Source: Candidatus Heimdallarchaeota archaeon AB_125
GTDB lineage: Archaea; Asgardarchaeota; Heimdallarchaeia; Heimdallarchaeales; Heimdallarchaeaceae
Length of the DNA stretch: 40,319 nt
Assembly: GCA_001940755.1 (NCBI GenBank)
Contig: MEHH01000001.1
Coordinates: 1 to 40,319, forward strand
Reading direction: 5' to 3'
In this document: positions 5,404 to 35,649 of the stretch, piece by piece
Layout of the letters: every line of letters starts with the position of its first letter
How positions within the stretch are numbered: the stretch's first letter is position 1
Position numbers and translations under genes: made by a program
The notes under the pieces: model-generated
The model's input: only the letters and a program-made list of their open reading frames with translations
Told to the model about the DNA's origin: nothing
The model's database searches: none

Positions 5404-5507
5404 AATTTCTTTCTTTATTTTTTATTTTTTTTATTTTGAAAATCTATAGTAATTTTCTAAAGTTATGAGAAAAATAAAAAGGACAAAATGAGTGATTTTT
5501 TTTAGTC
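5404..5507. terminator. bidirectional oligo-T terminator region between convergent genes
   Basis: The plus strand has T-runs right after the EF-2 stop (tttctttctttattttttattttttttattttg, about 5406-5440). The minus strand reads TTTTGTCCTTTTTATTTTTTCTC just downstream of the stop at 5508-5510. Archaeal termination typically uses oligo-T tracts. Confidence 0.5.
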
Positions 5508-7022
5508 TTAATCTACACTTTCACCAAATTCATCAGTTAACTGTTCATAGAACAAGTCTTCTTCGGAAATTGGTTCAAGTTCACCTTCTGTAATAATACC
5601 TGGTAGTTCTTCTTCCATAAATTCTTGATCATCTAGTACTGGATCAAGTGCATCCTCAAATCTTGATGAGAATCGCTCTTGAATGTAGCCAATTAATGAT
5701 GTCAGAAGCAATATGAAAACAACTATTGGTATCAACAATAGAACTACACCTTCTGGTTGTAGCATCTCTAGAGAATTATAAACTGAAGGAGGATATCTTA
5801 GAATGAACAATAACACATCTGGATTGAGGATGACATATAATCCTGCTAACATTATTAATACTCTGAATGTTACTGATGTTAGAACATATACTATTGTCAT
5901 CAGAGGTTTAATAATAACAGCAGCTCCAACTAATTTTTCATCAACTCTTGGATCACTGTGAACTAGTCCATCGTGATATCTTTGTAATCGAGATGTAAGT
6001 TTATCCTGTTGTCCACCTGGTCTAGCAAATAGAGAATCTGAAGCTTTCTCTAAGAAATAGGTCATACCCGCAACACCAAATTTTCTAGCTATAGAACTAC
6101 CTGTTGCTTCAATAGAATGTCCTGCTTTTTTCTCCCCTTCATCTTCTTCTGCTTCTGCATCCGCAGTAAGAATTGGACTAGGAGTCGTAGTTCCTGTAAT
6201 TCCAAGTCTAAACTCACTTAACCTATCAAGTGCTCTTAGAACTCTTTGTTGCCTACTTTGCGCCGGATTTAATATCAGAGAAATATAAGATATTTGCAAC
6301 GCTATCTCTAAGAACAAATATGATGATAAGGCTATCAGAACTACATCATTCGTGAACAACTCACCTAAGTTTTTAGTTGGTGAAAATCTGAAATTGCTCT
6401 TGAATAGATGTTTAACACTTCCATAATATACTATAAATTGAATACTAACAAATGCTGCAGCTGCGGAACGCATGTCCGCTCTAAATAGGAAAGCCAATAA
6501 AGATATACCTAGCAATATTACAAAGAACATCAGAATTGATGCCCTGAAAATTGCTTTTAGAGGAAAAATAACTTCCATTGAGAATGCATATTGGAATGAA
6601 GAAAACATATCCAAAGGGTTTGATCCATAGAGCAAATCGGTATCTATCCCTACTGGAGGTTGAATATTGTTGAATAAATCTCCTGTTAGAAATGCTCTTG
6701 CTCCATTAAGGATTGATTCAGCATCACCACCTCCAAACGCTAGAAAAATCATTAGAGGTGCAGTAAAGATAATCAGTGCTATGAGTTCAATAATTATAAA
6801 CAGGAATGACAGAGCATCCATCATATGTCCTTCTGGAAATAAAGCTGGATTAGCGAATTCAATTAAAGAGAATAACTCTACACCTACCCAAGCTATTGCA
6901 CCAATTGCAATTAATCTTCCTATTAAATGTGTCATCAAAGTCTGAATTCTTGCTCCTCTTATTCTGCTTTGTACTCCTCTTATACCCAGGTCAATTATTC
7001 TTGTATCTGATAATGATTCCAT
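5508..7022 (-). CDS. polytopic membrane protein with acidic C-terminal tail (last gene of cassette 1)
   Basis: The track ORF is 5508-7085, but its first 21 codons overlap the DUF58 gene. The ATG at 7022 (MESLSDTRII) lies 7 nt after the DUF58 stop. The protein has many hydrophobic segments, a central soluble loop and a tail DDQEFMEEELPGIITEGELEPISEEDLFYEQLTDEFGESVD. No family recognised. Confidence 0.6.
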   Translation of the reverse strand: MESLSDTRIIDLGIRGVQSRIRGARIQTLMTHLIGRLIAIGAIAWVGVELFSLIEFANPALFPEGHMMDALSFLFIIIELIALIIFTAPLMIFLAFGGGDAESILNGARAFLTGDLFNNIQPPVGIDTDLLYGSNPLDMFSSFQYAFSMEVIFPLKAIFRASILMFFVILLGISLLAFLFRADMRSAAAAFVSIQFIVYYGSVKHLFKSNFRFSPTKNLGELFTNDVVLIALSSYLFLEIALQISYISLILNPAQSRQQRVLRALDRLSEFRLGITGTTTPSPILTADAEAEEDEGEKKAGHSIEATGSSIARKFGVAGMTYFLEKASDSLFARPGGQQDKLTSRLQRYHDGLVHSDPRVDEKLVGAAVIIKPLMTIVYVLTSVTFRVLIMLAGLYVILNPDVLLFILRYPPSVYNSLEMLQPEGVVLLLIPIVVFILLLTSLIGYIQERFSSRFEDALDPVLDDQEFMEEELPGIITEGELEPISEEDLFYEQLTDEFGESVD

Positions 7023-7029
7023 ACTTTTT

Positions 7030-8478
7030 TCACCCCTGTCTTTGCATCCTATTAAATTGAGCCATGATTGTTGGCAGAAAGTCATCAGGTCCTACTGAAA
7101 TAGAAACAGAATCATACCTTCTAAGCATCTTAAACATATTCTGTCTTTCACCTAGTTGCTTTTCAACCATAGCATGACCAATCATCTGTTCAACTGGAGA
7201 TAGTTGCTGAGAAACAATTTCAAACCATGGTCCAAAAGGTGAAATAACTGTTATATTGTGTTTCTGTGCTCTGGCACGTCTTACAGCTTTCACTAATCGA
7301 TCTGGATGTGATTCAAGATCTGATATTATTACGATATAAGCTGACCTTTTCACTCTTTGGAGTAAGTAATTTATAGCAGCTTCAGGATCTGCTTCTCCTT
7401 CAGGTTTTGCATAGGCTAAAGCTTCAAGAAATTGGAACAATCTAGTTCGTGTTGAAGTTAAATCAACCCAATTCCTGATTTTATCGTTAAATATACACAT
7501 CCCCACTAAATCTTTCTTTTCAAAAGCAAGATGTATCATTAAAACTGCACTTCGGATGGCATATTCTAGTTTTGTATTTCTTGGTAATCCAGCACCCATA
7601 CTAGCTGAAGAATCTAATAGAACTACTAATCGGATATTTTCTTCGGATTCAAATTCACGAACCATCATTTTCCCAGAACGGGAAAAAGCTTTCCAATCGA
7701 TGAATTTGAAAGGATCACCTGTCTGATACTTGCGGATACCCCAGAAATCTGATCCCATTCCTTTGAGTTTAGTTCTGTGGAAACCAAATAGCAATCCAAG
7801 TTGTCTTTTCTTGCCTACCATATCTAGTTTCTTGATATCTTCATAACTTGGATAAACAAGAATTTCAGTTTTCGATCTTATCTCACCTTCTGTTGCATAG
7901 AAACCCATTCTATCCCTAATTATTACTTTAGTAGGACCTATTTCAAATAGTCCTCTAATAGGAATTCTGACAACATATCCATAGGAGATGGTTTGTCTAG
8001 GATTTAGTTGAGTTACGATGAAATTTTCTCCTAAAATTAAATCAAAAACTTCAGGTATGGCATCATATATTTCAATAGCAGGTAGTTGATTAACTGATTT
8101 GTTTCTGGCAGTTACTTCGATATAGAGGTAATCACCAGCGAAGGCTTTAGGTTTTGATACTCTTCTTTTAATTTCTATAGATTTTGGATTTGATCCAAGC
8201 CTATAGAACGGCAGTCCTAGTAGAACTGAGAAGATTAACATCACTCCACCTATTATGAAAAACCAGATGAGAGTTCCTTGTATATCTATATAGAAATGTA
8301 GGAAATCCATAACACCGAAACCTTCGGGATTGGGTTCAAAATCTGGATGATTTATTTGTGGATTGAAACCAAAAGAGTCCAACATCACATTTAGTGATAA
8401 GTACCCTGCAAGTGCAAAGCCTGCGCTAATCATGATGATTCCAGCAAAGATTAGCCAGCCACCTCGGCGCGTAAACAA
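7030..8478 (-). CDS. DUF58 family protein (vWA-like domain) with N-terminal transmembrane segments, cassette 1
   Basis: 482 aa. The DUF58 signature DFWGIRKYQTGDPFKFIDWKAFSRSGKMMVREFESEE is followed by VVLLDSSASMG, a DxSxS MIDAS-like motif. There are two N-terminal hydrophobic helices. The TTG start is preceded by AGGTGG. Confidence 0.8.
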   Translation of the reverse strand: MFTRRGGWLIFAGIIMISAGFALAGYLSLNVMLDSFGFNPQINHPDFEPNPEGFGVMDFLHFYIDIQGTLIWFFIIGGVMLIFSVLLGLPFYRLGSNPKSIEIKRRVSKPKAFAGDYLYIEVTARNKSVNQLPAIEIYDAIPEVFDLILGENFIVTQLNPRQTISYGYVVRIPIRGLFEIGPTKVIIRDRMGFYATEGEIRSKTEILVYPSYEDIKKLDMVGKKRQLGLLFGFHRTKLKGMGSDFWGIRKYQTGDPFKFIDWKAFSRSGKMMVREFESEENIRLVVLLDSSASMGAGLPRNTKLEYAIRSAVLMIHLAFEKKDLVGMCIFNDKIRNWVDLTSTRTRLFQFLEALAYAKPEGEADPEAAINYLLQRVKRSAYIVIISDLESHPDRLVKAVRRARAQKHNITVISPFGPWFEIVSQQLSPVEQMIGHAMVEKQLGERQNMFKMLRRYDSVSISVGPDDFLPTIMAQFNRMQRQG

Positions 8479-8503
8479 TATTTTCCACCTATTATTTTTG
8501 ATT

Positions 8504-9520
8504 CTATACAGGTACTGGTAGATTTCTCAATATCTCATTGACAACCATTGTACCAGTTGTACCTTCTAATTCCGCTTCAGGTTTCATTGCTAACCTATGT
8601 GCGGAAGCTACTCTTGCAATACGTTTGACATCGTCTGGAATGACATAGTCTCTTCCACGCATTGCAGCGACTGATTTTGCAGCGTTTAATAAAGCAATAC
8701 TACACCTTGGACTTCCTCCAAGAATAAGTCTTGGATCAGTTCGGGTTGATACTGTCAAATCTCGAATGTAATTCATAATGTCTTCATGGACGTATATTCG
8801 AGTCTCAACTGTTTCCATCATTTTAACAATTGTCATTGGAGTAGTAACTCTTCTGACAGTCTGTCGAATCTGGTTGTGTTTCAACCTGATAATATCAATC
8901 TCTTCTTCAGGTGATGGTAAATCCACTAATAGCTTGAACATGAACCTATCTACCTGAGCTTCAGGTAAAGGATATGTTCCTTCTTGTTCTATTGGATTTT
9001 GTGTTGCTATTACTAGAAATGGATCTTCAAGCTTGAAGGTTGTTCCTTCTACTGTTACTTGTTTTTCTGCCATTGCTTCTAAAAGAGCAGCTTGTGTCTT
9101 TGGAGGGCTTCTATTAATTTCGTCTGCTAGAAGTATATTTGTAAAGATGGGTCCTTTTCTCATCTTAAATGTTCCAGCTTTTGGATCATAGATTGTTGTC
9201 CCTACAACATCTGAAGGGAGTAAATCTGGAGTGAATTGCACTCTTTTAAACTCACACCCAAGTGTTTGAGCAAAAGATTTTGCCATCACTGTTTTAGCAA
9301 TACCTGGAACTCCTTCCAACAAACAGTGTCCTCCTCCGATTAAAGAGATAAACATATCTTCTAGGACATCAAGTTTTCCAATGATCACTCTGGCTAGTTC
9401 ACTGTAAATCTCGTCCCATACTCTCTTAACATCTTTAGGAGTTACAACTGCTTCAGTAGCTGCTTTAGCTTTCGCTTTTCCTTTTACTTCTTCATTTTTT
9501 TCTTCACTCATTTTTTTCAC
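8504..9520 (-). CDS. MoxR-type AAA+ ATPase, cassette 1
   Basis: 338 aa. Walker A is GVPGIAKT and Walker B is LLADEINR. The block PPKTQAALLEAMAEKQVTVEG...VIATQNPIEQEGTYPLPEAQVDRF is classical for MoxR/AAA_3. The start is GTG 9520 or ATG 9511. Confidence 0.9.
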   Translation of the reverse strand: MKKMSEEKNEEVKGKAKAKAATEAVVTPKDVKRVWDEIYSELARVIIGKLDVLEDMFISLIGGGHCLLEGVPGIAKTVMAKSFAQTLGCEFKRVQFTPDLLPSDVVGTTIYDPKAGTFKMRKGPIFTNILLADEINRSPPKTQAALLEAMAEKQVTVEGTTFKLEDPFLVIATQNPIEQEGTYPLPEAQVDRFMFKLLVDLPSPEEEIDIIRLKHNQIRQTVRRVTTPMTIVKMMETVETRIYVHEDIMNYIRDLTVSTRTDPRLILGGSPRCSIALLNAAKSVAAMRGRDYVIPDDVKRIARVASAHRLAMKPEAELEGTTGTMVVNEILRNLPVPV

Positions 9521-9530
9521 TTTTCCTTTT

Positions 9531-10712
9531 TTAAACTTCGGGTAATCTATCGATTAAACCCTTGATAAATGCCATATATTTCATGAACATGTGTTCAGGT
9601 AGAACACGAGGCTTTGCCAAATAAGCTTCGATTCTAATTAATGTTTCAAGCAGGTCTTTTTGTCTTAGTGAAGTATCCCTTTCACTGAAGTAACCTGCTA
9701 TTTCTTCTGGAGATGACATTGATTCTTTAGTCATTTTTCTTAGTCCTCTCATCAATGTCCTATAGAGTAGACCTACTGCTTCACTATACGCACCCGTGTC
9801 AACTATTCTCCGTATTTCTCTTTCAAACCTTGATCTTCCCTTTTCTCCTCGATATTTAGTCCAGAGTATTGGAGTTAATCGGGTTTTCTTTGGTATCAAA
9901 CGATATCCCAATATCGCTAGAATAATTGGCATAAATGGTGCATAGAGAGGAAACATAGACATCTCTGTAATAAATCTCATCAGAACCATTGAGTATACTG
10001 TTGCACTATAGAACTTCTGATGGGCATGTCCTTCATCAAAAATTATTGGAACTGCCTTTGTATCAGTTGCATTAATATCTTCTGTAAGATAGTTGAACAA
10101 GTTAATTGTGAATTGTGCATTATCATTCTCTGAGGTTTGTTCAATCCATTTGTTGATGAATACATCCGGATCTCCAATCATAACTATTTTTCCTCGACCT
10201 AAGGGTAATGTCATTATTGGAGCAAACATTGTACCACCCCATTCATCAGCATCGGGGGTTGCTGTTCCATCTTTTGCTGATTGGAAATCTGATTCGAACC
10301 AACTTGATACTGTTGTATAGAAAGGAAGGAATGGTAAGAAGAAATACCCCGCATCAATGCCTAGATGTTCAAGTAAATTGATTGCCTGCAGTGGCATCCA
10401 ATCAGTTTTATGAGATTTTACTGTCTCATCTTCATCTAGGAAGTATGAATGGTTCATTGCAATACTTAATCCTGTTCCAAATTCCATCTGAAGTTCATCT
10501 ACACCAGCTGTTAATGGTGTGGAAATCGCAGGAGTTAGTTTTGGTTGTGCAGGATTGACTGTATAGCTTTCTGCGTCCATCAAAACAGAACCATTAAAAC
10601 CAAATCCTTTAATCTGGGTAAGCATTGAGAAGAAAATGGTTTCTTCAGTTACACCTCCACCATCGTCACCAAATCCGAATAGTTCAGATAAGGTGGGTAT
10701 ACCTCCTTGCAA
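9531..10712 (-). CDS. DUF4350/GldG-like protein, C-terminal portion (downstream of an in-frame TGA), with TM segment and helical DUF4129-like end
   Basis: 393 aa, in the same frame as ORF 10728-11183. GRGKIVMIGDPDVFINKW...VPIIFDEGHAHQKF aligns by eye with GFGTIVVISSMSFLTNDL...LLVCFEESHKRW of the intact copy-2 paralogue (22648-23931). The nominal TTG start has no upstream GGTG-type ribosome-binding motif. Confidence 0.55.
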   Translation of the reverse strand: MQGGIPTLSELFGFGDDGGGVTEETIFFSMLTQIKGFGFNGSVLMDAESYTVNPAQPKLTPAISTPLTAGVDELQMEFGTGLSIAMNHSYFLDEDETVKSHKTDWMPLQAINLLEHLGIDAGYFFLPFLPFYTTVSSWFESDFQSAKDGTATPDADEWGGTMFAPIMTLPLGRGKIVMIGDPDVFINKWIEQTSENDNAQFTINLFNYLTEDINATDTKAVPIIFDEGHAHQKFYSATVYSMVLMRFITEMSMFPLYAPFMPIILAILGYRLIPKKTRLTPILWTKYRGEKGRSRFEREIRRIVDTGAYSEAVGLLYRTLMRGLRKMTKESMSSPEEIAGYFSERDTSLRQKDLLETLIRIEAYLAKPRVLPEHMFMKYMAFIKGLIDRLPEV

Positions 10713-10727
10713 TAATGCAATTTGATC

Positions 10728-11183
10728 TCAAGTGTTGATTATATTAAACAGAGGTTCAAAAATTTCTCCTCCTGTGCCATAATCATCCGCCACCAATAAA
10801 CTGCCACCCCTCGCTAAGAAAGTTATTAGAGAGATTGTGTCAGTCATACTATATTGGGTTGCTGGACCGATTATAGCAAAAACACCTGGATCATGTACTC
10901 TGTTCAATAAGGATAATGAGGACATACCGTTTGTTATGTTTGTAAAACCATCATTTTCAAGAACTTGACGCATACTTGACAATCCATCCCAACTATCACT
11001 ATAGATACTGAATTTTGTTCCAAATCCTCCTAGTCCTACAAGACCTAGAAAGATAGGTACAACTACGATTAGGAACAGAAGAGACATCACAATTGAATAT
11101 TTTGTGAAACTAAATTTAGGTAATCTAAATCTAACTCTTCCTCTTGATTGTCTTTCTTGTTCTGCTTGTTCTTGTTGGCTCAA
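10728..11183 (-). CDS. DUF4350/GldG-like protein, N-terminal portion (TM anchor plus first half of the domain), ended by an in-frame TGA
   Basis: 151 aa. FSIYSDSWDGLSSMRQVLENDGF...FAIIGPATQYS...FLARGGSLLVADDYGTG aligns by eye with YTMYNTSPSGLSTFNTILQERGF...LVIAGGVKNYR...FVGRGGTLLLLGGSGSS of the copy-2 paralogue. The domain therefore continues across the stop codon. Confidence 0.55.
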   Translation of the reverse strand: MSQQEQAEQERQSRGRVRFRLPKFSFTKYSIVMSLLFLIVVVPIFLGLVGLGGFGTKFSIYSDSWDGLSSMRQVLENDGFTNITNGMSSLSLLNRVHDPGVFAIIGPATQYSMTDTISLITFLARGGSLLVADDYGTGGEIFEPLFNIINT

Positions 11184-15211: not shown

Positions 15212-15212
15212 C

Positions 15213-19430: not shown

Positions 19431-19487
19431 TTTTCTTCTCCTACTTCTTTCTTTAATATGTTAACTATATATTATAACAAGAATAGG

Positions 19488-20303: not shown

Positions 20304-20304
20304 A

Positions 20305-21696: not shown

Positions 21697-21703
21697 ACTA
21701 AAT

Positions 21704-22648
21704 TTAAATTACAACTTCAACTTCTGACAAGACATTTTGGATAATTTCTGAAACTCTAATTTGTTCAATCTCTGCCTCGGGAGAGAGTATTAATCTGTGA
21801 TTCATCACTGGAAAGAAAATTGCTTTGATATCGTCAGGTTCTACAAAATCTCTTCCTCTGATTGCAGCAATAGATCTGCTCAATGTTAACAAAGCTATAG
21901 AACCTCTAGGACTTGCTCCTAATGCGAAAGATGGTACTGATCGAGTAGCTACAACAAGTTTTGCTATGTATTCAAGTATTTGATTACTAAGAATTACACC
22001 ATTTTCAATTTCACTAGCTAATTTCTTCAGAGTATCTTTCTTTGTAACGGCATTTACATCTGCAAACATTTCCTCTTTCTTCTTCACTAACATAGCTATT
22101 TCACCTTGAAGAGAAGGGGGATAAACTGGTATTTTAACAAGAAAACGATCTATTTGGGCTTCAGGGAGAGGATAGACTCCTGTACTTTCAATTGGATTTT
22201 GCGTTGCTATTACCATAAATGGTTCCGGTAGCTTGTATGTTTTCTTTCCCGAAGAAACCTGTTTTTCTTGCATAGCTTCTAGTAAAGCTGATTGTGTTTT
22301 CGGTGGTGCTCTGTTGATTTCATCTGTTAGAAGAACATTCGTGAATACAGGACCTTCAATGAAGTTGAAAGAACTAGTTTCTCTTTCATATATATTCCCA
22401 CCTGTAATATCTGCTGGCATCAAATCGCTGGTAAACTGGATTCGCTTAAACCCTACCTTAATTACTTCTGCCAAAGTGCTAGCCATCAAAGTTTTAGCAA
22501 CTCCTGGAACGCCTTCTAGAAGAACATGTCCTCCACTTAGAAGTGATGCAAACATTAATTCAATGACATTTTCATTTCCAACTATCCTTTTTTTCATTTC
22601 ATCCATTATTTTGTTAAAAATTTCTTTAGTTTCTTGTACTTGTGTCAT
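21704..22648 (-). CDS. MoxR-type AAA+ ATPase, cassette 2
   Basis: 314 aa. Walker A is GVPGVAKT and Walker B is LLTDEINR, followed by PPKTQSALLEAMQEKQV...VIATQNPIESTGVYPLPEAQIDRF. By eye it is about half identical to the copy-1 MoxR between Walker A and Walker B. It has a TAATG overlap with the upstream gene. Confidence 0.9.
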   Translation of the reverse strand: MTQVQETKEIFNKIMDEMKKRIVGNENVIELMFASLLSGGHVLLEGVPGVAKTLMASTLAEVIKVGFKRIQFTSDLMPADITGGNIYERETSSFNFIEGPVFTNVLLTDEINRAPPKTQSALLEAMQEKQVSSGKKTYKLPEPFMVIATQNPIESTGVYPLPEAQIDRFLVKIPVYPPSLQGEIAMLVKKKEEMFADVNAVTKKDTLKKLASEIENGVILSNQILEYIAKLVVATRSVPSFALGASPRGSIALLTLSRSIAAIRGRDFVEPDDIKAIFFPVMNHRLILSPEAEIEQIRVSEIIQNVLSEVEVVI

Positions 22649-23931
22649 TAATATCGCCTTCTTTTTTGTATAATTTCCAATCTCTTAAACAGAAAAAGGA
22701 ACGTATCGTGGTCTAATTTTTTTGTTAATGCGAGCTCAAAAAGCTCTCTCTCTTCCTCTTCATATAGGTGAGATGGTACAAATTTCATCTTCTCTAATAT
22801 GAAATAATTGTAAGCTTTACTTGGATAAAGTTCATGCTGAAAATATAAATAAGAAAGAACTTTTTCCTCAACTGTTGGATTTATTGGAGTTCCAAAAGTA
22901 TCAAATAACTCTCTTCTTCTGCTCCAGATCTTTTTTGATATAAATTTCTTATAGGATTCCTTCGTTCTAAATTCATCTCTAAATCTAGGAGTTATATAAT
23001 ACAAAACCAATAACAGAAGAATTGTTATGAAAATAAAAATCTTTGTTTTTGAATACAAAATAATGTTACCATATGTTTGGTTGATTATACCTTCTGTTGA
23101 AGCAAAAGGCCATCTTTTATGGCTTTCTTCAAAACAAACCAATAACTCTGATCCTCCAGTGTATGAACCTATAAGACTAATTGTAAGATTTATATTATCA
23201 AAACCAGCAAGATATAAATCATTAGTAAGAAAACTCATAGAGGAGATGACAACAATAGTTCCAAAACCTCTACTTACTGCTACTGCTACTTTGTAACTTC
23301 GAGTATCTTCTGCAATCTGATCCCACATCTTATCTCCATTTGTATCAATAAAAACAGTAGGCTCTGTTGAGATAGATTGAACTTCATTTTGTTGATCACT
23401 TGTAGCAACATAAAGTATTGCTTTTGAAAATGCAAAACATAAAGTTCTATTAACAGTTGTAGGAGAATGAGTGAAAATATATTCGGGTGTGGGGTAATAG
23501 TTTTCTGTTGCCAAAAGCATAGAAAAAGACATTGTTATTCCAAAATAATCTGCAAGATCATATGAGGAACCTGAGCCACCGAGAAGAAGAAGTGTTCCAC
23601 CTCTTCCAACAAATGAATCAATAATTTCTTTTTCTGATGACCTATAATTCTTTACCCCTCCAGCAATAACAAGTATTGATGAATCTGGAAGTTTCAAAAT
23701 TGGATCAGTTGATAATATTGTCCGAGTAGTATTAAACCCTCTCTCTTGTAGAATTGTATTAAAAGTTGATAATCCACTTGGAGAAGTATTATACATTGTA
23801 TAAGGAGGAGGAGTATGTGTTACATTGATGCTTAAAGGAATTGTAAAAATAACAAATAGTAATAGAGTTTGGATTACCATTTTAAAAAATGGTGAATATT
23901 TCTTAGAAAAGAAAGCTCTCGATCTCTTCAT
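22648..23931 (-). CDS. DUF4350/GldG-like protein with N-terminal and C-proximal TM segments, cassette 2 (intact)
   Basis: 427 aa. It has an N-terminal TM, GGTLLLLGG and GTIVVISSMSFLTND blocks (class-I amidotransferase-like / ABC_transp_aux-like pattern), a TM segment (IFIFITILLLLVLYYI) and a helical C-terminus. It has an ATGA overlap with the upstream gene. Confidence 0.55.
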   Translation of the reverse strand: MKRSRAFFSKKYSPFFKMVIQTLLLFVIFTIPLSINVTHTPPPYTMYNTSPSGLSTFNTILQERGFNTTRTILSTDPILKLPDSSILVIAGGVKNYRSSEKEIIDSFVGRGGTLLLLGGSGSSYDLADYFGITMSFSMLLATENYYPTPEYIFTHSPTTVNRTLCFAFSKAILYVATSDQQNEVQSISTEPTVFIDTNGDKMWDQIAEDTRSYKVAVAVSRGFGTIVVISSMSFLTNDLYLAGFDNINLTISLIGSYTGGSELLVCFEESHKRWPFASTEGIINQTYGNIILYSKTKIFIFITILLLLVLYYITPRFRDEFRTKESYKKFISKKIWSRRRELFDTFGTPINPTVEEKVLSYLYFQHELYPSKAYNYFILEKMKFVPSHLYEEEERELFELALTKKLDHDTFLFLFKRLEIIQKRRRY

Positions 23932-24698
23932 TCTTCCTCACCTAATTCTTCAGTCTGTGTTATCTGAATATCAACTTCTTTGCCACTCATGTCCTTGATA
24001 GTTTTCAATTCTAGTATGAATCTCTCTAGATCATTATAGTTCATCTGAGATATCCTATAACGAGCTTCATAGAAAATATCTACAATACTTCTAAAATGAG
24101 GTAAAATTTCAGGTAAATTTAGAGACATAGAAAATTCTTTTGGAGTAAGATAAGTTTCTCTTTTAATTCCAAGAACTCTTTTCATATTTTTATCCAGCTG
24201 ATGATAACCAAAAATAATTCCTTCTGCAAAATTACCATGTCTCAAAAATTTCTCTAATAAATCAACTAGTGTTACTATTTGTGTTCTAAACTTATGTCTT
24301 CTTGATTTTAATGTGGTTTGTCTTTGTGTTGTTTTTGTGCTTGAATGACTCACTTCTTTTCTTCTTCTAAAATATAATAAGAAAATCAAAATTATTACTG
24401 CTATACCTATACCTATGGGGAGAACTCTGGAAGGCACACTAGGTTTTTCTGTTTGTATGATTTCACCATTTGAAGTAGGAGAAGGAGTGTCAGTGGGGTA
24501 AGTTGGCCCAGTTGAGGAGGGGAAGGTTTCTGTTGTAGTGTTGAAAGACCCAACATTCGTAGTAATAAGTGTACTAACGGGGACATCATTGATTCCCTCA
24601 TAACTCTCTTGAGAACTATTTATCAAAACAAAAACAACAAGACACGCTACGAGAACAAGAACTCTAAGATTGATATATTTTGTAATATTCCTAGCCAT
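23928..24698 (-). CDS. bitopic membrane protein with S/T/P-rich ecto-stalk and cytoplasmic DUF4129-like domain, cassette 2
   Basis: The track ORF extends to 24728. The ATG at 24698 (MARNITKY) is preceded by AGGTGA and overlaps the upstream stop by 8 nt, so I prefer it. The layout is a TM segment, a stalk of about 70 aa (TTTETFPSSTGPTYPTDTPSPTS), a second TM segment, then LTPKEFSMSL...IFYEARYRISQMNYNDLERF (DUF4129-like). Confidence 0.6.
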   Translation of the reverse strand: MARNITKYINLRVLVLVACLVVFVLINSSQESYEGINDVPVSTLITTNVGSFNTTTETFPSSTGPTYPTDTPSPTSNGEIIQTEKPSVPSRVLPIGIGIAVIILIFLLYFRRRKEVSHSSTKTTQRQTTLKSRRHKFRTQIVTLVDLLEKFLRHGNFAEGIIFGYHQLDKNMKRVLGIKRETYLTPKEFSMSLNLPEILPHFRSIVDIFYEARYRISQMNYNDLERFILELKTIKDMSGKEVDIQITQTEELGEEE

Positions 24699-25677
24699 TC
24701 TTATCACCTTCGAGAGATTCATCAACAATTAATTTACTTTCACTTAGGAAAGCATAAATTCTGCATAATGGCCAATAGTCAGTTAAACAAATCTGATATT
24801 TGTGTTCAGATGTAACATAACCAAGAAATGCACATTTACTATCTGCAAAAAATCTACAATTTTTTTTCTCAGTTGATTTTAATAATGTCTCTACTTTCCG
24901 ATTCATATAAACCATTGATAATGCATGGTACTGCCTGTTATCATATTTTGGAGGTTTGTCCAAATCAAAAATTGTTTGAACAGATAGGGGCATTTTAGGT
25001 TGTATCAAATTAGAAAATGAGATTTTAGCCCCTTTTTTAGGAAGGAACATATTAACAAACAGTTTCCCAAATCGAACACCTACAATTCCTCCTAAAGAGC
25101 ATATTATTAAGAAAGAGAGAGAGAAAATGAAAATAAAGCCTAGATACCAGAATCCTGAAAGGACTCCTGAAATATTTGCGGCCATAGTACTGAATAGGAT
25201 TACTTGTGAGAGATGCAAAGTGATGAACAGCAGAAAAGTAACCACAGCAGAACTAAGAACAAGATCTCTAGCTTCTTCTCCCCAGAGTATAGCACATATT
25301 ATACCTGATATGAAGAAAGGCAAGAAAATGGTAACTATATAGTTAGCTACTAAAGAATCGAGATTTTGTGAAATGAAGGTTGATAGAAAGGGGATATAAA
25401 GAATTTCTTCAGGGCTCCAAATAAGACCATAGAATAATGATAAATCATTGATATAGTACATAATTATACTTAGAACTATAGTTATGGAATAAGCAATTGC
25501 TAGATAAGTTGAGCTTCTTCTTACAAGAATTCCAACATACTCTCGTTTACCTCTGTTCTTCAATGAAGGAAAGAATAATTTGTACAATAAATACTTGAAA
25601 TCAAGCTTAAAAGGCGTATGTTCCGTTTTATCCTTCTTAGGTTGAGGTGGAACATAGGTGGTATCTTGTCTTGCCAT
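24691..25677 (-). CDS. polytopic membrane protein with C-terminal four-Cys cytoplasmic module, cassette 2
   Basis: 328 aa with a basic N-terminus and about 5-6 hydrophobic segments. The C-terminus carries C274-x7-C282 ... C297-x7-C305. It occupies the position held by SpoIIM/DUF95-like genes in related bacterial and haloarchaeal clusters, but I could not verify that by motif. Confidence 0.5.
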   Translation of the reverse strand: MARQDTTYVPPQPKKDKTEHTPFKLDFKYLLYKLFFPSLKNRGKREYVGILVRRSSTYLAIAYSITIVLSIIMYYINDLSLFYGLIWSPEEILYIPFLSTFISQNLDSLVANYIVTIFLPFFISGIICAILWGEEARDLVLSSAVVTFLLFITLHLSQVILFSTMAANISGVLSGFWYLGFIFIFSLSFLIICSLGGIVGVRFGKLFVNMFLPKKGAKISFSNLIQPKMPLSVQTIFDLDKPPKYDNRQYHALSMVYMNRKVETLLKSTEKKNCRFFADSKCAFLGYVTSEHKYQICLTDYWPLCRIYAFLSESKLIVDESLEGDKNG

Positions 25678-25685
25678 AATATCAC

Positions 25686-27401
25686 CTACAAAATGATGAG
25701 ATTTGTCCCCCTTGATGCTTTTACTATGAAATATATGAATAGAGAATCAACTAATAGAATAAGGCTAATACCGATCAGACCAAAGAAAATTTGATAGACT
25801 GATATTATCAAAAAAACAGCAAATATCGATAAGTACAAGGTTGTTATTATTAGAGAAAAAACAACAATAGAAGTAATATTAATTGAAGCTAGAATTGATT
25901 TAACTCTGTTCTTTGAGGAGGCATACCAAGATACGCTTACCCCTAAAGCTATTATTACGTTTAATAGAAAAATAGTGTTCCCCAGAAATTGTAAAGTATT
26001 ATCAATTGTAACGAAAACGACTACGAAGATGATGATTATTCCTATACTTATAATTCTAGCAAATCCAACTGAAAGATTCATGTATAATGGCTGCGATGAT
26101 GACCCCATTTTTTCAAATAAGGTTGGTGTATCAGAACCACATGCCCAACAATTTCTACTAAAAGCTGGAATAACTTGGTTGCAGTTTTCACATTGAAGTT
26201 TAGGAAAAGACCAACAATTACCACAAAATTCTCCATTGTAAAAAGGGTATTGACATTCCGGACATCTAAGCATTTCTGTTGAATTTTCAAAAAGTCTATT
26301 AATTCGTTTCTTCTTTCGAATTTTTTGCTTATATTTATCAAAATTTTTCTCTGTTTTCCCGCAGTTCTTAGTTCTGTGTTCACTGTAACATGAAGGACAT
26401 AATCTCGGGACCTTTAATAAAATCCACAAAGCAAAGAATCCAAAAGCAGCATAAGAGATATATCCCATTATTTGAAGCTGGGATAAAATGAACTTCTCAC
26501 TAAAAACCTGGAAATTATAATTCCAGTATGCATGAAATCCTACAGATGCAAACAAAGTTAGAACAAGGAATATTCTGGGTACAATCTTCCTCTTATCTTT
26601 TCTAGATATAAAGACATAACCTATACCAAAAGCAAGTATCATTGAAGTTATCGTATGTAGAGGAAATATTGATCTCGAATTAATCAGCACATCTATTATT
26701 TCTTGATTAGTTAGAGCAGATGCAAGATATCCTTCAGGAGGATTGCTTAAAATTGAGAAAGATAAGAATTGTTCAAATAAATCAAAAGTAGCTCCATAAA
26801 ACCCTCCTAGTAATATAAATGTTCGATGAGTAGGAATCAAATTGGTTATTATGTTCTTCTTCTTATTATTAATTCTTACAAAATTTCCGAGTAAAATAAG
26901 AAGTGGAAATATTTTAGCAATTTCCTCAATAATTGGAATTATTGAAACATATAGTACAGTATTAGCTGCTTGGTACGTAACTCCAGGTACACCTATTGAC
27001 GTTAAAAGATCTTTAAATGTGAAAACAAGCAGAAATGCTTTGTTCTCAATTACTGTAGCGAAGTAAGCTGTTAATGAAGCTGTAACTAATAGTAAAGGAA
27101 AAATCTTCTTAATAACCGACTTTTCAATATCTGTACCTGTCATCGAGAATAAAAAATAAAGACTTGTGACCCATACTACAAAGAACATTACTATAACAAA
27201 AATTACTATAAATGGAAAGTAATAGGATTTCAAATAGTAACTGAGAAGAGAATAAGAGAGATATAATACGCCAATTAGAACACCGATTATGATTAATTTT
27301 CCTACACTTGAGAGACTAAAGATTCTGTTGTATAATAATCTACTTGGAACCATTAAAGCTGAACTAGACTCGCTAATGCTCTCTTCTGATGTTCGTATCA
27401 T
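25686..27401 (-). CDS. PrsW-like intramembrane protease fused to a cytoplasmic double zinc ribbon and extra C-terminal TM helices; first gene of cassette 2
   Basis: 571 aa. Four PrsW/CPBP-type motifs occur in order within TM regions: IIEEIAK, GGFYGATFDLFEQ, FPLHT and FHAYWNYN. A cytoplasmic segment then carries CPSC, CPEC-x9-CGNC and CENC-x10-CWAC. Four more hydrophobic helices follow. Confidence 0.6.
   Translation of the reverse strand: MIRTSEESISESSSALMVPSRLLYNRIFSLSSVGKLIIIGVLIGVLYLSYSLLSYYLKSYYFPFIVIFVIVMFFVVWVTSLYFLFSMTGTDIEKSVIKKIFPLLLVTASLTAYFATVIENKAFLLVFTFKDLLTSIGVPGVTYQAANTVLYVSIIPIIEEIAKIFPLLILLGNFVRINNKKKNIITNLIPTHRTFILLGGFYGATFDLFEQFLSFSILSNPPEGYLASALTNQEIIDVLINSRSIFPLHTITSMILAFGIGYVFISRKDKRKIVPRIFLVLTLFASVGFHAYWNYNFQVFSEKFILSQLQIMGYISYAAFGFFALWILLKVPRLCPSCYSEHRTKNCGKTEKNFDKYKQKIRKKKRINRLFENSTEMLRCPECQYPFYNGEFCGNCWSFPKLQCENCNQVIPAFSRNCWACGSDTPTLFEKMGSSSQPLYMNLSVGFARIISIGIIIIFVVVFVTIDNTLQFLGNTIFLLNVIIALGVSVSWYASSKNRVKSILASINITSIVVFSLIITTLYLSIFAVFLIISVYQIFFGLIGISLILLVDSLFIYFIVKASRGTNLIIL

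Positions 27402-33453: not shown

Positions 33454-35649
<2,196 letters not shown>

What the first reader, a model, noticed from the sequence alone, without database searches (positions are those of the whole stretch)
5508..27401. Two diverged tandem copies of a DUF4129-DUF4350-MoxR-DUF58-membrane cassette with different head genes
Seen in the sequence: the minus-strand gene strings 18278->5508 and 27401->19488 share the same internal order.
- A TM-anchored protein ends in a DUF4129-like cytoplasmic domain (11561-15211 / 23928-24698).
- A DUF4350/GldG-like protein with an N-terminal TM follows (9531-11183 / 22648-23931).
- Next is a MoxR AAA+ ATPase (8504-9520 / 21704-22648).
- Next is a DUF58 protein with N-terminal TMs (7030-8478 / 20305-21696).
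- Last is a polytopic membrane protein with an acidic tail (5508-7022 / 19488-20303).

Gene junctions are ATGA/TAATG overlaps or 1-10 nt gaps, so each string is probably one transcript. The two MoxR proteins are only about half identical by eye between Walker A and Walker B. This is therefore an old duplication, not an assembly artefact.

Established knowledge: MoxR-DUF58 pairs with DUF4129/DUF4350 neighbours recur in bacterial and haloarchaeal genomes. They often sit with TgpA-like transglutaminase, SpoIIM-like or RDD proteins. No biochemical function has been assigned to the module.

Inference: this is a MoxR-driven machine that assembles or remodels a membrane or surface complex. It is present here in two specialised versions, one with giant ectodomains and a pseudo-transglutaminase, the other with an intramembrane protease.
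Basis: partly seen in the sequence, partly recalled or inferred. Interest (0 to 1): 0.8.

Follow-up and report, generated by a model that had tools for sequence, protein, structure and literature searches.

The report
Twin MoxR–DUF58 envelope operons in Heimdallarchaea
Two neighbouring operons in a Heimdall (Asgard) archaeon each pair a cytoplasmic AAA+ motor and its adaptor with membrane-spanning surface proteins; this is a lineage-specific version of a widespread module that has been predicted from genomes but never characterised, so it is interesting but not a new kind of system.

Summary
Two minus-strand operons (A 18278→5508, B 27401→19488) both encode DUF4129-tail protein → DUF4350 → MoxR (AAA_3) → DUF58/vWA → polytopic membrane protein. 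Their head genes differ: A has a pseudo-transglutaminase plus a 1216-aa ectodomain protein, and B has a PrsW-type protease.

Corrections:
- The A DUF4350 gene carries an in-frame TGA. It is TGG in a 99.6%-identical assembly and in orthologues.
- A 146-aa DUF4129-like gene (A3) was overlooked.
- The two terminal membrane proteins are not detectably homologous.
- thyX lies between the cassettes on the other strand.

The whole arrangement recurs in every related Heimdallarchaeaceae contig I could read across it. Cassette A's six-gene core recurs in an Odinarchaeota MAG and one further, unidentified MAG. Cassette B was found only in Heimdallarchaeaceae. A MoxR tree gives no support for a lineage-specific A/B duplication.

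DUF4129→DUF4350→MoxR→DUF58 is also the commonest order around related MoxR genes elsewhere, and was predicted in 2015 to form an archaeal secretion or membrane-remodelling complex.

Best reading: a cytoplasmic MoxR–vWA chaperone pair acts on the conserved cytoplasmic tails of fast-evolving surface proteins. In B it is coupled to intramembrane proteolysis. The mechanism is inferred. This is a new variant of a known kind, of moderate interest.

The parts
25686..27401 (-). B1: PrsW-type intramembrane protease (about 8 TM) + cysteine-rich zinc-ribbon loop + 4 C-terminal TM; 571 aa
   Evidence: Pfam PrsW-protease 2.5e-10, 40.7 bits against a cutoff of 23.5. E159, E160, K163, F206, E210, H249, H290 and N294 are invariant or nearly so, together with three Cys4/Cys3His knuckles, in 21 homologues. 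The family has 33 members, all Heimdallarchaeaceae-type. AF2 pLDDT 78, no PDB fold match.
24691..25677 (-). B2: 328-aa membrane protein (about 5 TM) with a basic N-terminus (KNRGxREY motif) and a C-terminal tail carrying 4 invariant Cys; no family
   Evidence: Only a weak Pfam hit (DUF5518, 5.8e-3). Orthologues lie in the same position in L161, L163 and L165. Conserved motifs.
23928..24698 (-). B3: 256-aa bitopic protein: TM, short Pro/Thr/Ser-rich ectodomain, TM, cytoplasmic DUF4129-like tail (LTPKEF...FYEARY)
   Evidence: Pfam DUF4129 1.7e-3, below cutoff. hhalign to the A2 tail 70.7%, E 3.8e-5. Topology, motif conservation. The ATG at 24698 matches the 256-aa orthologues.
22648..23931 (-). 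B4: DUF4350/GldG-like protein: N-terminal TM, 250-aa ectodomain, TM, 109-aa cytoplasmic tail
   Evidence: Pfam DUF4350 4e-15. Weak hits to ABC_transp_aux (4e-5) and IFT52_GIFT (0.011). Topology.
21704..22648 (-). B5: MoxR AAA+ ATPase (314 aa), Walker A GVPGVAKT, Walker B DEINR
   Evidence: Pfam AAA_3 6.7e-64 and AAA_lid_2 2e-22. 48.7% identical to A5. Orthologues 70-95% identical.
20305..21696 (-). B6: DUF58 protein: N-terminal TM hairpin + cytoplasmic beta-sandwich/vWA body with a degenerate MIDAS (DLGSA)
   Evidence: Pfam DUF58 1.5e-18. MIDAS alignment. Topology and composition.
19488..20303 (-). B7: 271-aa polytopic membrane protein with an acidic C-terminal tail; orphan family
   Evidence: No Pfam or NCBIfam hit. 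33 homologues, all Heimdallarchaeaceae-type. Not related to A7.
18732..19430 (+). thyX (flavin-dependent thymidylate synthase): an unrelated housekeeping gene lying between the cassettes on the opposite strand, in a conserved position
   Evidence: Pfam Thy1 1.7e-60. Same position in L161, L163, L165 and L013.
15213..18278 (-). A1: 1021-aa protein: basic N-terminus, about 3 TM, about 860-aa acidic ectodomain containing a catalytically dead transglutaminase-like core (residues about 417-540)
   Evidence: Pfam Transglut_core 5e-6, 27.2 bits against a cutoff of 23. Triad replaced by Ser/Phe, Tyr and Gln in all orthologues when aligned to a canonical TGase. Ectodomain K+R 3.6%.
11561..15211 (-). 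A2: 1216-aa type-I-like protein: signal/anchor, 1028-aa ectodomain with no known domains, TM, 130-aa cytoplasmic DUF4129 tail
   Evidence: Pfam DUF4129 8.7e-8. The ectodomain is 35-41% identical between orthologues and the tail 62-84%.
11131..11571 (-).
   Evidence: Pfam DUF4129 3.2e-3. hhalign A2 tail vs A3 95.9%, E 5e-9. 73-88% identical in orthologues. The Odin and L171 counterparts match at 1e-10 to 1e-14.
9531..11183 (-). A4: DUF4350/GldG-like protein (550 codons) interrupted by an in-frame TGA at 10728-10730; N-terminal TM, 349-aa ectodomain, TM, 124-aa cytoplasmic tail
   Evidence: Pfam DUF4350 on both halves. The codon is TGG (Trp) in L001, L013 and the 99.6%-identical L173, whose gene is intact.
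8504..9520 (-). A5: MoxR AAA+ ATPase (338 aa), Walker A GVPGIAKT, Walker B DEINR
   Evidence: Pfam AAA_3 1.1e-66. Orthologues 84-94% identical in Heimdallarchaeaceae, 64% in LC_2 and 54-57% in Odin and L171.
7030..8478 (-). A6: DUF58 protein: TM hairpin + cytoplasmic vWA body with an intact MIDAS (DSSAS)
   Evidence: Pfam DUF58 3.3e-32 and VWA_2 5.9e-11. DxSxS is kept in all A-type orthologues. Positive-inside topology.
5508..7022 (-). A7: 504-aa polytopic all-helical membrane protein with a conserved 115-aa loop and an acidic tail (EEDLFYEQL); a small, probably Asgard-centred orphan family
   Evidence: No Pfam, NCBIfam or PADLOC hit. 79 homologues, all Heimdall. Only 87 clusters among 1.84 billion representatives, one of them Odinarchaeota. 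It sits after DUF58 in L169, L171, L003 and L167. AF2 pLDDT 67, no PDB fold match.

Best explanation
These are two separately transcribed operons of a Heimdallarchaeaceae archaeon. Each encodes an envelope-spanning complex built around the same cytoplasmic engine.

The engine is a MoxR AAA+ ATPase plus a membrane-tethered DUF58 protein. The DUF58 vWA body faces the cytoplasm and acts as the substrate adaptor. I infer that its clients are the strongly conserved cytoplasmic tails of bitopic envelope proteins. These are the DUF4129-type tails of A2 and B3, the soluble A3 paralogue, and the tails of the DUF4350 proteins. Their ectodomains face outward. ATP-driven remodelling of these tails would assemble, quality-control or switch the state of the surface complex.

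Cassette A is found in Heimdall and Odin lineages and may be Asgard-wide. It displays very large, fast-diverging ectodomains, including an inactive transglutaminase-like domain that probably only binds peptides.

Cassette B was found only in Heimdallarchaeaceae. It has minimal ectodomains and couples the engine to a catalytically competent PrsW-type intramembrane protease. That protease most likely cleaves one of the operon's own membrane proteins.

Shown here: gene content, order, homology, topology signals and conservation patterns. Inferred: physical interactions, the direction of action and the substrates.
For: - Families and order in both strings. Tight junctions of -53 to +25 nt.
- Conserved synteny of B1-B7, thyX and A1 in four related Heimdallarchaeaceae loci (three distinct contigs), down to 35% B1 identity.
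- Full cassette A in Ca. Heimdallarchaeum endolithica and another genome.
- The A-type six-gene core (giant protein, small DUF4129-like protein, DUF4350, MoxR, DUF58, A7-like protein) in an Odinarchaeota MAG and one further, unidentified MAG.
- Topology. The DUF58 bodies follow a TM hairpin with basic flanks. They have 14-15% K+R, like MoxR. The predicted ectodomains have 2-6% K+R and are rich in Ser, Thr and Asn.
- The cytoplasmic parts are the conserved parts. MoxR and DUF58 are 84-95% identical between orthologues, against 29-51% for A1 and A2. The A2 tail is 62-84% identical, against 35-41% for its ectodomain.
- Both ATPases keep Walker A and B motifs. A6 keeps the MIDAS motif DxSxS in all A-type orthologues.
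- The PrsW catalytic residues are invariant. The TGL triad is lost in all orthologues.
- Established knowledge, as summarised in PMC7159879 and PMC3495828: MoxR-vWA pairs such as RavA-ViaA and midasin work as a chaperone with a peptide-binding co-chaperone. From my own knowledge, not checked here, CbbQ-CbbO and NorQ-NorD are further examples.
Against: - No interaction, expression or biochemical data exist for any of these proteins.
- A cytoplasmic location for the DUF58 body contradicts the 'likely secreted' annotation in Makarova et al. 2015. It rests only on the positive-inside rule and composition.
- B6 has a degenerate MIDAS, so metal-dependent ligand capture may not apply in cassette B.
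- The A4 and B4 tails are not detectably DUF4129-like, nor related to each other.
- In this window A4 carries a stop codon, so cassette A may be impaired in this strain.
- The PrsW substrate is unknown.
- AF2 models of A7 and B1 gave no informative fold matches.
Confidence: 0.5

Rival explanations
1. It is a novel archaeal secretion system, as proposed by Makarova, Galperin & Koonin in 2015. The DUF4350 (GldG-like) protein, the vWA protein and accessory surface proteins would form an export apparatus. MoxR would assemble or regulate it, and the giant A1 and A2 proteins would be cargo or structural parts.
For: - PMC5898192 section 3.2 describes arCOG01314 (DUF4350) + MoxR + vWA operons with surface proteins and proposes a secretion system.
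- The DUF4350-GldG similarity is reproduced here by weak ABC_transp_aux and IFT52_GIFT hits.
- The giant ectodomain proteins are encoded in cis.
Against: - No channel-forming or ABC/ATPase-translocon component is encoded. The polytopic proteins A7 and B7 have no transporter fold match.
- A1, A2 and the DUF4350 proteins have ordinary N-terminal signal or anchor segments, compatible with export by the general Sec pathway.
- The accessory arCOG02884/pfam07760 proteins of the published model were not detected here.
- Cassette B has almost no ectodomain cargo.
Confidence: 0.12
2. It is an outside-in surface sensor, like the actinobacterial Esr/PFNA pathways and Aravind's MoxR-vWA 'thresholding' systems. 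The variable ectodomains would detect viruses, partners or ligands. The MoxR-vWA pair would set a threshold and relay the signal, with PrsW cleavage as the output in cassette B.
For: - Esr (bioRxiv 10.64898/2026.09.08.750141) comprises a filamentous surface protein, MoxR, a vWA protein and a transglutaminase that anchors the sensor.
- PFNA comprises FN3, MoxR, DUF58 and Tgm.
- Here the ectodomains diverge about twice as fast as the tails, as expected for surfaces under diversifying pressure.
- From my own knowledge, not checked here: PrsW is a signalling protease in Bacillus, where it makes the site-1 cut of the anti-sigma factor RsiW.
Against: - No kinase, phosphatase, FHA, effector or toxin genes are present.
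- No PADLOC hit apart from a marginal DolB match.
- Both MoxRs score far better against AAA_3 than against bpMoxR.
- The cassettes sit at a fixed place in a housekeeping syntenic block (cofE, cofG/H-type radical SAM genes, thyX, an EF-2 paralogue, Cdc48) in all relatives. That is unlike patchy defence islands.
- The TGL domain is inactive, so it cannot anchor a sensor covalently as EsrD is proposed to do.
Confidence: 0.2
3. It is a membrane-proximal ATP-dependent protein degradation system, as proposed by Zhang & Aravind in 2012. The vWA protein would recruit substrates, MoxR would unfold them, and the linked peptidase would cut them. That peptidase would be TGL in bacteria and PrsW in cassette B here. 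Cassette A would be a non-degradative derivative.
For: - PMC3495828 proposes this for the widespread MoxR-vWA-YebA/TgpA operon.
- L018 in my set shows MoxR, DUF58 and a canonical TGase.
- Cassette B has an apparently active peptidase as its head gene.
Against: - In cassette A the TGL triad is lost in all orthologues and the domain is predicted to be extracellular, away from the ATPase.
- From my own knowledge, PrsW-type enzymes cut at or within the membrane and are not known to need an unfoldase.
- MoxR family members are not known to thread substrates into proteases.
Confidence: 0.13
4. The two cassettes are functionally independent. Their adjacency is historical accident, with no joint function or specialisation.
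For: - They are separate transcription units, split by thyX on the other strand.
- The MoxR tree does not unite them.
- Cassette A occurs without a detectable B in Odin, in L171 and in LC_2-type loci, and no B1 or B7 homologue from the closed H. endolithica genome was returned.
Against: The adjacency B7-thyX-A1 is retained in the four related loci read across this junction (three distinct contigs), down to 33-35% identity of B1 and A1. However, the whole region is syntenic, so this does not prove functional coupling.
Confidence: 0.3

Closest known systems
arCOG01314 (DUF4350)-MoxR-vWA 'putative novel secretion / membrane remodelling complex' of archaea (Makarova, Galperin & Koonin 2015, PMC5898192)
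   Same: Both have a DUF4350/GldG-like bitopic protein, a COG0714 MoxR ATPase and a DUF58-type Ig+vWA protein in one operon with additional membrane and surface proteins. Both are archaeal. Both rest on prediction without experiment.
   Different: The published accessory families (arCOG02884/pfam07760 S-layer-like proteins) were not detected here. Instead there are DUF4129-tail proteins, a pseudo-TGL giant protein, the orphan families A7, B2 and B7, and a PrsW protease. My topology analysis places the vWA body in the cytoplasm rather than outside. Asgard genomes were not available in 2015.
Bacterial MoxR-DUF58(vWA)-TgpA/YebA transglutaminase-like triad (Zhang & Aravind 2012, PMC3495828). From my own knowledge, P. 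aeruginosa TgpA is the studied example.
   Same: MoxR and DUF58 sit next to a membrane-anchored transglutaminase-like protein. DUF4129 is the C-terminal cytoplasmic domain of TgpA-type proteins (my recollection of the Pfam description).
   Different: Here TGL and DUF4129 are on different polypeptides (A1 and A2). The TGL catalytic triad is lost. The proteins are 2-3 times larger. DUF4350 and A7 are added.
PFNA operon of bifidobacteria and the Esr threat-sensing pathway of Schaalia (PMC8430577; bioRxiv 10.64898/2026.09.08.750141)
   Same: A large repeat-rich surface protein is encoded with MoxR, a vWA/DUF58 protein and a transglutaminase-like protein.
   Different: There is no Ser/Thr kinase, phosphatase or FHA output. 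No beta-propeller or FN3 was detected. The TGL is inactive. The organism is an archaeon, with no peptidoglycan to anchor to.
Bat (Bacteroides aerotolerance)-type MoxR-DUF58-BatA/BatB operons
   Same: The MoxR (AAA_3) and DUF58 pair. Several of the closest MoxR sequence relatives at about 50% identity sit in this context: vWA/BatA/BatD families were found after DUF58 in 4-7 of 108 loci, and DUF4381 in 13.
   Different: No BatA or BatB vWA membrane proteins, TPR protein or DUF4381 are present here. The upstream DUF4129 and DUF4350 genes are absent from Bat operons.
PrsW site-1 protease of Bacillus subtilis (cleaves the anti-sigma factor RsiW; my own knowledge, not checked here)
   Same: Pfam PrsW-protease is above its cutoff, and the EExxK and HxxxN motifs are invariant.
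   Different: B1 is about 2.5 times longer, with an inserted triple zinc-knuckle loop and four extra TM helices. It is encoded with MoxR and DUF58. Archaea have no sigma/anti-sigma partners. No solved structure was available to compare.

Membership tests
MoxR AAA+ ATPase, MRP-type (Pfam AAA_3) | AAA_3 core and AAA_lid_2 above the Pfam cutoffs; Walker A GxxGxxKT and Walker B hhhhDE present | tested here: met
   A5 scores 223 bits and B5 214 bits against a cutoff of 27. The lid scores 75 and 79 bits. The motifs were read.
MoxR AAA+ ATPase, MRP-type (Pfam AAA_3) | A DUF58/vWA partner gene lies immediately downstream | tested here: met
   A6 and B6 follow after gaps of 25 and 7 nt. 69 of 80 related MoxR loci show the same pairing.
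DUF58 (PF01882) / vWA | DUF58 above cutoff; vWA fold with a MIDAS motif DxSxS | tested here: met
   For A6, DUF58 scores 112 bits and VWA_2 43 bits, and DSSAS is conserved in all A-type orthologues.
DUF58 (PF01882) / vWA | Same features in the cassette B copy | tested here: inconclusive
   B6 scores 67 bits for DUF58 (above cutoff). It has no VWA Pfam hit, and its MIDAS is degenerate: DLGSA, DLSST or DLGST.
DUF4350 (PF14258) / arCOG01314 | Pfam match above cutoff; N-terminal signal or TM, large ectodomain, C-terminal TM | tested here: met
   B4 scores 57 bits and the A4 N-terminal half 34 bits, against a cutoff of 30.4. Topology. A4 is interrupted by TGA in this window.
DUF4129 (PF13559) | Pfam match above the cutoff of 24.8 bits | tested here: met
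   A2 tail scores 32.6 bits.
DUF4129 (PF13559) | Pfam match above cutoff for B3 and A3 | tested here: inconclusive
   B3 scores 18.8 bits and A3 17.9 bits, both below cutoff. Profile-profile comparison links them to the A2 tail: A3 at 95.9% and B3 at 70.7%.
Transglutaminase-like enzymes (PF01841) / TgpA | Catalytic Cys-His-Asp triad | tested here: not met
   The fold-level match is above cutoff (27.2 against 23 bits). The triad positions are Ser (or Phe), Tyr and Gln in the window and four orthologues when aligned to a canonical TGase from L018.
Transglutaminase-like enzymes (PF01841) / TgpA | TgpA architecture: N-terminal TM bundle, TGase domain, TM and DUF4129 in one polypeptide | tested here: not met
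   The TGL domain is in A1 and DUF4129 is in A2.
PrsW family intramembrane protease (PF13367) | Pfam match above cutoff; conserved EExxK/R, FxxxE and HxxxN/D motifs | tested here: met
   40.7 bits against a cutoff of 23.5. E159, E160, K163, F206, E210 (nearly invariant), H290 and N294 are conserved in 21 sequences.
PrsW family intramembrane protease (PF13367) | Proteolytic activity on a membrane-anchored substrate | not testable with these tools
   No substrate could be identified. The fold search found no solved homologue.
Makarova 2015 arCOG01314 'secretion complex' | Accessory S-layer-like or Ig-like proteins of arCOG02884 / pfam07760 in the operon | tested here: not met
   No such Pfam hit in any of the 14 proteins, even at E up to 5.
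Esr / PFNA signalling cluster | Ser/Thr kinase (plus phosphatase and FHA protein) in the cluster | tested here: not met
   No kinase or FHA domain in the cassettes or in the other window ORFs scanned with Pfam. The remaining flanking ORFs were annotated only through their orthologues in related loci.
Aravind MoxR-vWA ternary conflict systems (VMAP, iSTAND, beta-propeller, FtsH) | A third conserved component (VMAP, iSTAND, propeller or FtsH) and effector domains | tested here: not met
   No such domains. PADLOC gave nothing significant. bpMoxR hits are much weaker than AAA_3.
Bat aerotolerance operon | BatA/BatB TM-vWA proteins and a TPR BatC downstream of DUF58 | tested here: not met
   The genes after DUF58 are A7 and B7, which have no vWA, BatA or TPR hits.

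The most novel reading that the evidence does not exclude
Cassette B would be an ATP-gated regulated-proteolysis switch known only from Heimdallarchaeaceae. The MoxR-DUF58 pair would hold or present the DUF4129-tailed anchor B3, or B2, to the zinc-ribbon-bearing PrsW-type protease. This would release a cytoplasmic fragment as a signal. Cassette A would be the ancestral, possibly Asgard-wide surface complex under the same kind of inside-out control.

A still more remote reading also stays open. Cassette A combines MoxR, an inactive TGL domain and a GldG/GIFT-like domain. Eukaryotic relatives of these three (dynein and midasin, ciliary TGL proteins, IFT52) act together in cilia. The Asgard module could therefore be close to the prokaryotic source that Zhang & Aravind proposed in 2012.
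Probability: 0.12. Interest if true: 0.75.

Novelty: new variant of a known kind. Interest (0 to 1): 0.45.

Why it matters
MoxR-vWA (DUF58) modules are among the most widespread uncharacterised operons in prokaryotes. Their link to DUF4350 and DUF4129 membrane proteins has only been predicted from genomes.

The Heimdall versions offer three things:
- A clean natural comparison. The same engine serves a giant-ectodomain surface complex in one cassette and an intramembrane protease in the other.
- Explicit candidate interfaces. The cytoplasmic tails are conserved about twice as strongly as the ectodomains they anchor.
- Candidate major surface proteins for Asgard archaea. Their envelope and cell-cell contacts matter for models of eukaryogenesis and, to my knowledge, are molecularly almost unknown.

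If the mechanism were established, it would probably transfer to the many bacterial DUF4129-DUF4350-MoxR-DUF58 loci.

Tried and rejected
- The look-up of encoding contigs with the window's own A5 protein found no exact match.
- The metagenome scan with B5 found no orthologue. The best hit was 50% identical, and those hits were closer to A5 than to B5.
- A first Biopython bootstrap run timed out. I redid it with my own distance code.
- The AF2 model of A7 (pLDDT 67) and of B1 (pLDDT 78) gave no PDB fold match with E below 0.4. A7 therefore remains an orphan, and PrsW membership rests on sequence alone.
- A sequence search of A1 against the PDB gave nothing.
- NCBIfam and PADLOC added nothing.
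- The bacterial promoter and terminator scan was no better than shuffled sequence, as expected for an archaeon.
- Pfam at a relaxed E-value found no Ig, FN3, CARDB or PKD domains in the A1 or A2 ectodomains.
- Rejected: selenocysteine or other recoding at the A4 TGA. Orthologues and a 99.6%-identical assembly have TGG.
- Rejected: a recent tandem duplication or assembly artefact.
- Weakened: the acidic tails of A7 and B7 as general MIDAS ligands. A7-type proteins in the LC_2-type loci have strongly basic tails instead.
- Not resolved: whether the A4 and B4 tails, or the B2 tail, are DUF4129-like. hhalign probabilities were below 2%.

Full report
**What is in the sequence**

The window comes from a Heimdallarchaeaceae (Asgard) genome. 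The cassette A MoxR is 91-94% identical to proteins of three 'Candidatus Heimdallarchaeota' MAGs.

All genes of the finding are on the minus strand.

Cassette A, 18278→5508:
- A1, 15213-18278, 1021 aa.
- A2, 11561-15211, 1216 aa.
- A3, 11131-11571, 146 aa.
- A4, 9531-11183.
- A5, 8504-9520.
- A6, 7030-8478.
- A7, 5508-7022.

Cassette B, 27401→19488:
- B1, 25686-27401.
- B2, 24691-25677.
- B3, 23928-24698.
- B4, 22648-23931.
- B5, 21704-22648.
- B6, 20305-21696.
- B7, 19488-20303.

Junctions inside each string run from a 53-nt overlap to a 25-nt gap. GGTG/GGAGG-like motifs precede many start codons.

thyX (18732-19430, plus strand) lies between the strings. It is convergent with B7 and divergent from A1. 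A and B are therefore two transcription units, not one.

**Checking the observation**

Pfam recovers the same families in the same order in both strings. Those families are DUF4129, DUF4350, AAA_3/AAA_lid_2 (MoxR) and DUF58. The head genes carry Transglut_core (A1) and PrsW-protease (B1). The B3 and A3 matches to DUF4129 fall below the curated cutoff. Profile-profile comparison nevertheless ties them to the A2 tail (A3 95.9%, E 5e-9; B3 70.7%, E 4e-5).

Similarity of positional counterparts (profile comparison):

| Pair | Result |
|---|---|
| MoxR (A5/B5) | 48.7% identity, E 7e-106 |
| DUF58 (A6/B6) | 24.7% identity, E 2e-17 |
| DUF4350 (A4/B4) | E 1e-3; ectodomain profiles 93.8%, E 2e-7 |
| DUF4129 tails (A2/B3) | E 3e-3 |

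Four corrections are needed.
- A4 is interrupted by an in-frame TGA at 10728-10730. Orthologues L001 and L013 have Trp at this position. An independent assembly that is 99.6% identical over 7.3 kb (L173) has TGG and an intact 550-aa gene. The stop is therefore a single G→A change, either a strain-specific nonsense allele or a consensus error. It is not recoding.
- A3, a soluble DUF4129-like paralogue of the A2 tail, was overlooked.
- A7 and B7 share position, polytopic topology and an acidic tail, but no detectable homology (BLASTP E 1.6; hhalign of 23- and 22-sequence profiles, probability 0.4%).
They match the N-termini and lengths of the orthologues.

**Conservation elsewhere**

The B1 family has 33 members and B7 has 33. 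Nearly all named members are labelled Heimdallarchaeota or Heimdallarchaeaceae. Two B7 hits carry other labels, 'Thorarchaeota' and 'Asgard group'.

I read four related loci carrying B1 orthologues, from three distinct contigs (two of the loci encode the same B1 protein). Their B1 proteins are 81%, 47% and 35% identical to the window's by BLASTP. All show the same layout:

Cdc48 – x – Ras/Arf-family GTPase – CBS – FrhB-like – CofE – x – x – B1…B7 – thyX (opposite strand) – A1.

A B7 homologue also lies on a 132,329-bp contig, the same length as the contig that carries the L013 copy of cassette A.

Cassette A is complete, and followed by the same EF-2 paralogue and cofG/H-type genes, in:
- L013.
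- Ca. Heimdallarchaeum endolithica, closed genome CP084167.1.
- GCA_054387835.1.

A profile search with A7 against 1.84 billion representatives found only 87 clusters. One is from an Odinarchaeota MAG. Its locus reads: 2001-aa protein – 176-aa TM+DUF4129-like protein – DUF4350 – MoxR – DUF58 – A7-like protein. A second MAG of unidentified lineage (L171) has the same order. All of these components are recognisably orthologous to A3-A7.

Heimdall LC_2 and L170 carry only a MoxR + DUF58 + A7-like set, in a different gene order, inside glycosylation gene clusters. In L170 the DUF58 gene appears truncated. Their A7-like proteins have basic rather than acidic tails.

**Duplication or not**

Each cassette A component is more similar to its Odin or L171 counterpart than to its cassette B counterpart.

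| Component | A vs Odin/L171 | A vs B |
|---|---|---|
| MoxR | 54-57% | 49% |
| DUF58 | 39-42% | 25% |
| DUF4350 | 27% over the full length | 26% over the N-terminal 113 residues only |

An NJ tree of 68 MoxR sequences with 100 bootstraps gave these supports:
- A clade: 100.
- B clade: 100.
- A + LC_2: 100.
- A + B: 0-1.

Even the loci retrieved with B5 as the query are closer to A5 than to B5. B is therefore either a fast-evolving ancient paralogue or a separate acquisition. The data do not show a lineage-specific tandem duplication.

No B1 or B7 homologue from the closed H. endolithica genome was returned. This hints that B has a narrower distribution than A, but I could not scan that genome directly.

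**The module is a known recurrent neighbourhood**

- DUF58 follows MoxR in 69 of the 80 genome loci, three of which are the Heimdall orthologues.
- DUF4350 is the commonest family immediately upstream of MoxR (21 of 97).
- DUF4129 is the commonest family two genes upstream (12 of 64).
- Downstream of DUF58, the partners include DUF4381 (13 of 108), vWA/BatA/BatD families (4-7 of 108) and, in L018, a canonical transglutaminase.

Relevant literature:
- Makarova et al. 2015 (PMC5898192) described arCOG01314 (DUF4350) + MoxR + vWA operons in archaea. They proposed a novel secretion or membrane-remodelling complex.
- Zhang & Aravind 2012 (PMC3495828) proposed that the MoxR-vWA-TGL triad is a membrane-proximal degradation system.
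- The bifidobacterial PFNA operon and the recently described Esr pathway combine a surface filament, MoxR, a vWA protein and a transglutaminase in signalling.
- A full-text search for 'MoxR' together with 'Asgard' returned one paper, whose title does not concern these cassettes. I did not open it.

**Anatomy bearing on mechanism**

Hydropathy and the positive-inside rule give the following topologies.
- MoxR and A3 are soluble.
- The DUF58 proteins are N-in TM hairpins followed by a roughly 390-aa body.
- A2, B3, A4 and B4 are bitopic, with an outward domain and a 110-145-aa inward tail.
- A1 has a basic N-terminus, about 3 TM helices and an 860-aa C-terminal domain.

Composition separates the two sides sharply. 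The predicted ectodomains have 2-6% K+R and 21-43% S+T+N. MoxR, the DUF58 bodies and the tails have 11-21% K+R. On this evidence the vWA body is cytoplasmic, next to the ATPase. Makarova et al. annotated it as 'likely secreted', so the two views disagree.

Conservation is inverted relative to size.
- MoxR and DUF58 are 84-95% identical between Heimdallarchaeaceae orthologues.
- A1 and A2 are only 29-51% identical.
- Within A2, the tail is 62-84% identical and the ectodomain 35-41%.

Catalytic and binding sites:
- Both MoxRs keep Walker A and B motifs.
- A6 keeps the MIDAS motif DxSxS in every A-type orthologue. B6 has DLGSA, DLSST or DLGST.
- A1's transglutaminase triad is replaced by Ser/Phe, Tyr and Gln in all orthologues.
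- B1 keeps E159, E160, K163, F206, E210, H290 and N294. It also has three invariant Cys-rich knuckles in a 109-aa basic loop.

**Most likely mechanism (inference)**

A MoxR hexamer with a membrane-tethered vWA adaptor works on the cytoplasmic face. Its clients are the conserved helical tails (DUF4129-type and the DUF4350 tails), and perhaps the conserved loop or tail of A7. Through them it would assemble, proof-read or switch an envelope complex whose outward parts evolve quickly.

Cassette A presents giant ectodomains, including a peptide-binding pseudo-TGL domain. Cassette B has almost no ectodomain and adds an apparently active PrsW-type protease. I therefore expect MoxR-controlled cleavage of one of its own membrane proteins.

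I put about 0.5 on this general picture and much less on any specific substrate.

Rival explanations:
- A secretion system. No conduit or translocation ATPase is encoded, and the published accessory families are absent.
- An Esr-like outside-in sensor. The fast-evolving ectodomains fit. However, there are no kinase, FHA or effector genes, the cassettes sit fixed in a housekeeping syntenic block, and PADLOC gave nothing significant.
- A degradation machine. This is conceivable for B but not for A.
- Simple functional independence of A and B.

**Novelty**

The kind of system is known as a genomic prediction. The following appear to be new:
- The Asgard versions themselves.
- The orphan families A7, B2 and B7.
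- The PrsW-zinc-ribbon head gene.
- The split and inactivated TgpA-like architecture.
- The conserved twin arrangement around thyX.
- The evidence for a cytoplasmic vWA body.
- The asymmetry in conservation between tails and ectodomains.

I rate this as a new variant of a known kind, with interest about 0.45.

The most novel reading not excluded is an ATP-gated regulated-proteolysis switch in B, with A as a possibly Asgard-wide surface complex under inside-out control. More remotely, A combines MoxR, TGL and a GIFT-like domain, which could relate to the proposed prokaryotic roots of the eukaryotic set of dynein and midasin, ciliary TGL proteins and IFT52. The only evidence for the GIFT link is the known superfamily similarity and a sub-threshold IFT52_GIFT hit.

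Noticed in passing
window 10728-10730: An in-frame TGA splits the cassette A DUF4350 gene. Orthologues and a 99.6%-identical independent assembly (L173) have TGG (Trp) and an intact 550-aa gene. It is a single G→A nonsense allele or a consensus error.
   Followed up: yes
It overlaps A2 by 11 nt and A4 by 53 nt. It is 73-88% conserved, and the Odin and L171 loci have counterparts that carry a TM segment.
   Followed up: yes
L163 and L164, 17923-19716: The thyX between the two cassettes is 597 aa in these relatives, against 232 aa here, and has a faint LAGLIDADG_3 hit. It probably contains an intein.
   Followed up: no
window 3163-5403 (plus strand): An EF-2/EF-G-family GTPase paralogue (746 aa) lies convergent with A7. 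It keeps about 90% identity and the same position in all Heimdallarchaeaceae loci examined.
   Followed up: partly
window 31893-32480 and 33454-35640 (minus strand): A Ras/Roc/Arf-family small GTPase (195 aa, Ras 8e-44) sits upstream of cassette B. So does a 728-aa ORF whose orthologues in the related loci hit Cdc48 domains. Both are typical Asgard eukaryote-like genes in a conserved syntenic block.
   Followed up: partly
window 27954-28676 (minus strand): A 240-aa protein just upstream of B1 has sub-threshold HEAT_Nup120 and TPR hits. Its orthologues hit TPR_12 or SNAP weakly. Its function is unknown, but its position is conserved.
   Followed up: no
L167 (Heimdall LC_2, MDVR01000060.1) 5101-9452; L170 6912-11428: A DUF58 + MoxR + A7-like set lies inside a glycosylation gene cluster (glycosyltransferases, epimerases, an NTP transferase). 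It lacks DUF4350 and DUF4129, and the A7-like protein has a strongly basic rather than acidic tail. In L170 the DUF58 gene appears truncated.
   Followed up: partly
L167 13907-14746: A 279-aa protein in the LC_2 locus hits Pfam CCDC47, a component of the eukaryotic ER multipass translocon.
   Followed up: no
window 24691-25677 (B2), C-terminal 60 residues: Four invariant cysteines (CxxxxxxxC…C…C) and an invariant N-terminal KNRGxREY motif occur in an otherwise orphan membrane protein. This could be a metal or disulphide site.
   Followed up: partly
window 28759-29517; 142-1242; 1235-3054: Genes of F420-biosynthesis type flank the cassettes on both sides. On one side is the orthologue of a CofE/F420-ligase gene. 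On the other are a radical-SAM gene whose neighbour in the related loci carries CofH_C, plus RibD_C and an amidohydrolase. The cassettes are embedded in a housekeeping block, not a mobile island, and GC content is even (0.32-0.38).
   Followed up: partly
L018 (Syntrophomonadaceae MAG) 4472-8823: A bacterial MoxR and DUF58 are followed by a canonical 747-aa transglutaminase with an intact GxC…HAWVE motif. I used it as the reference for the triad comparison.
   Followed up: yes
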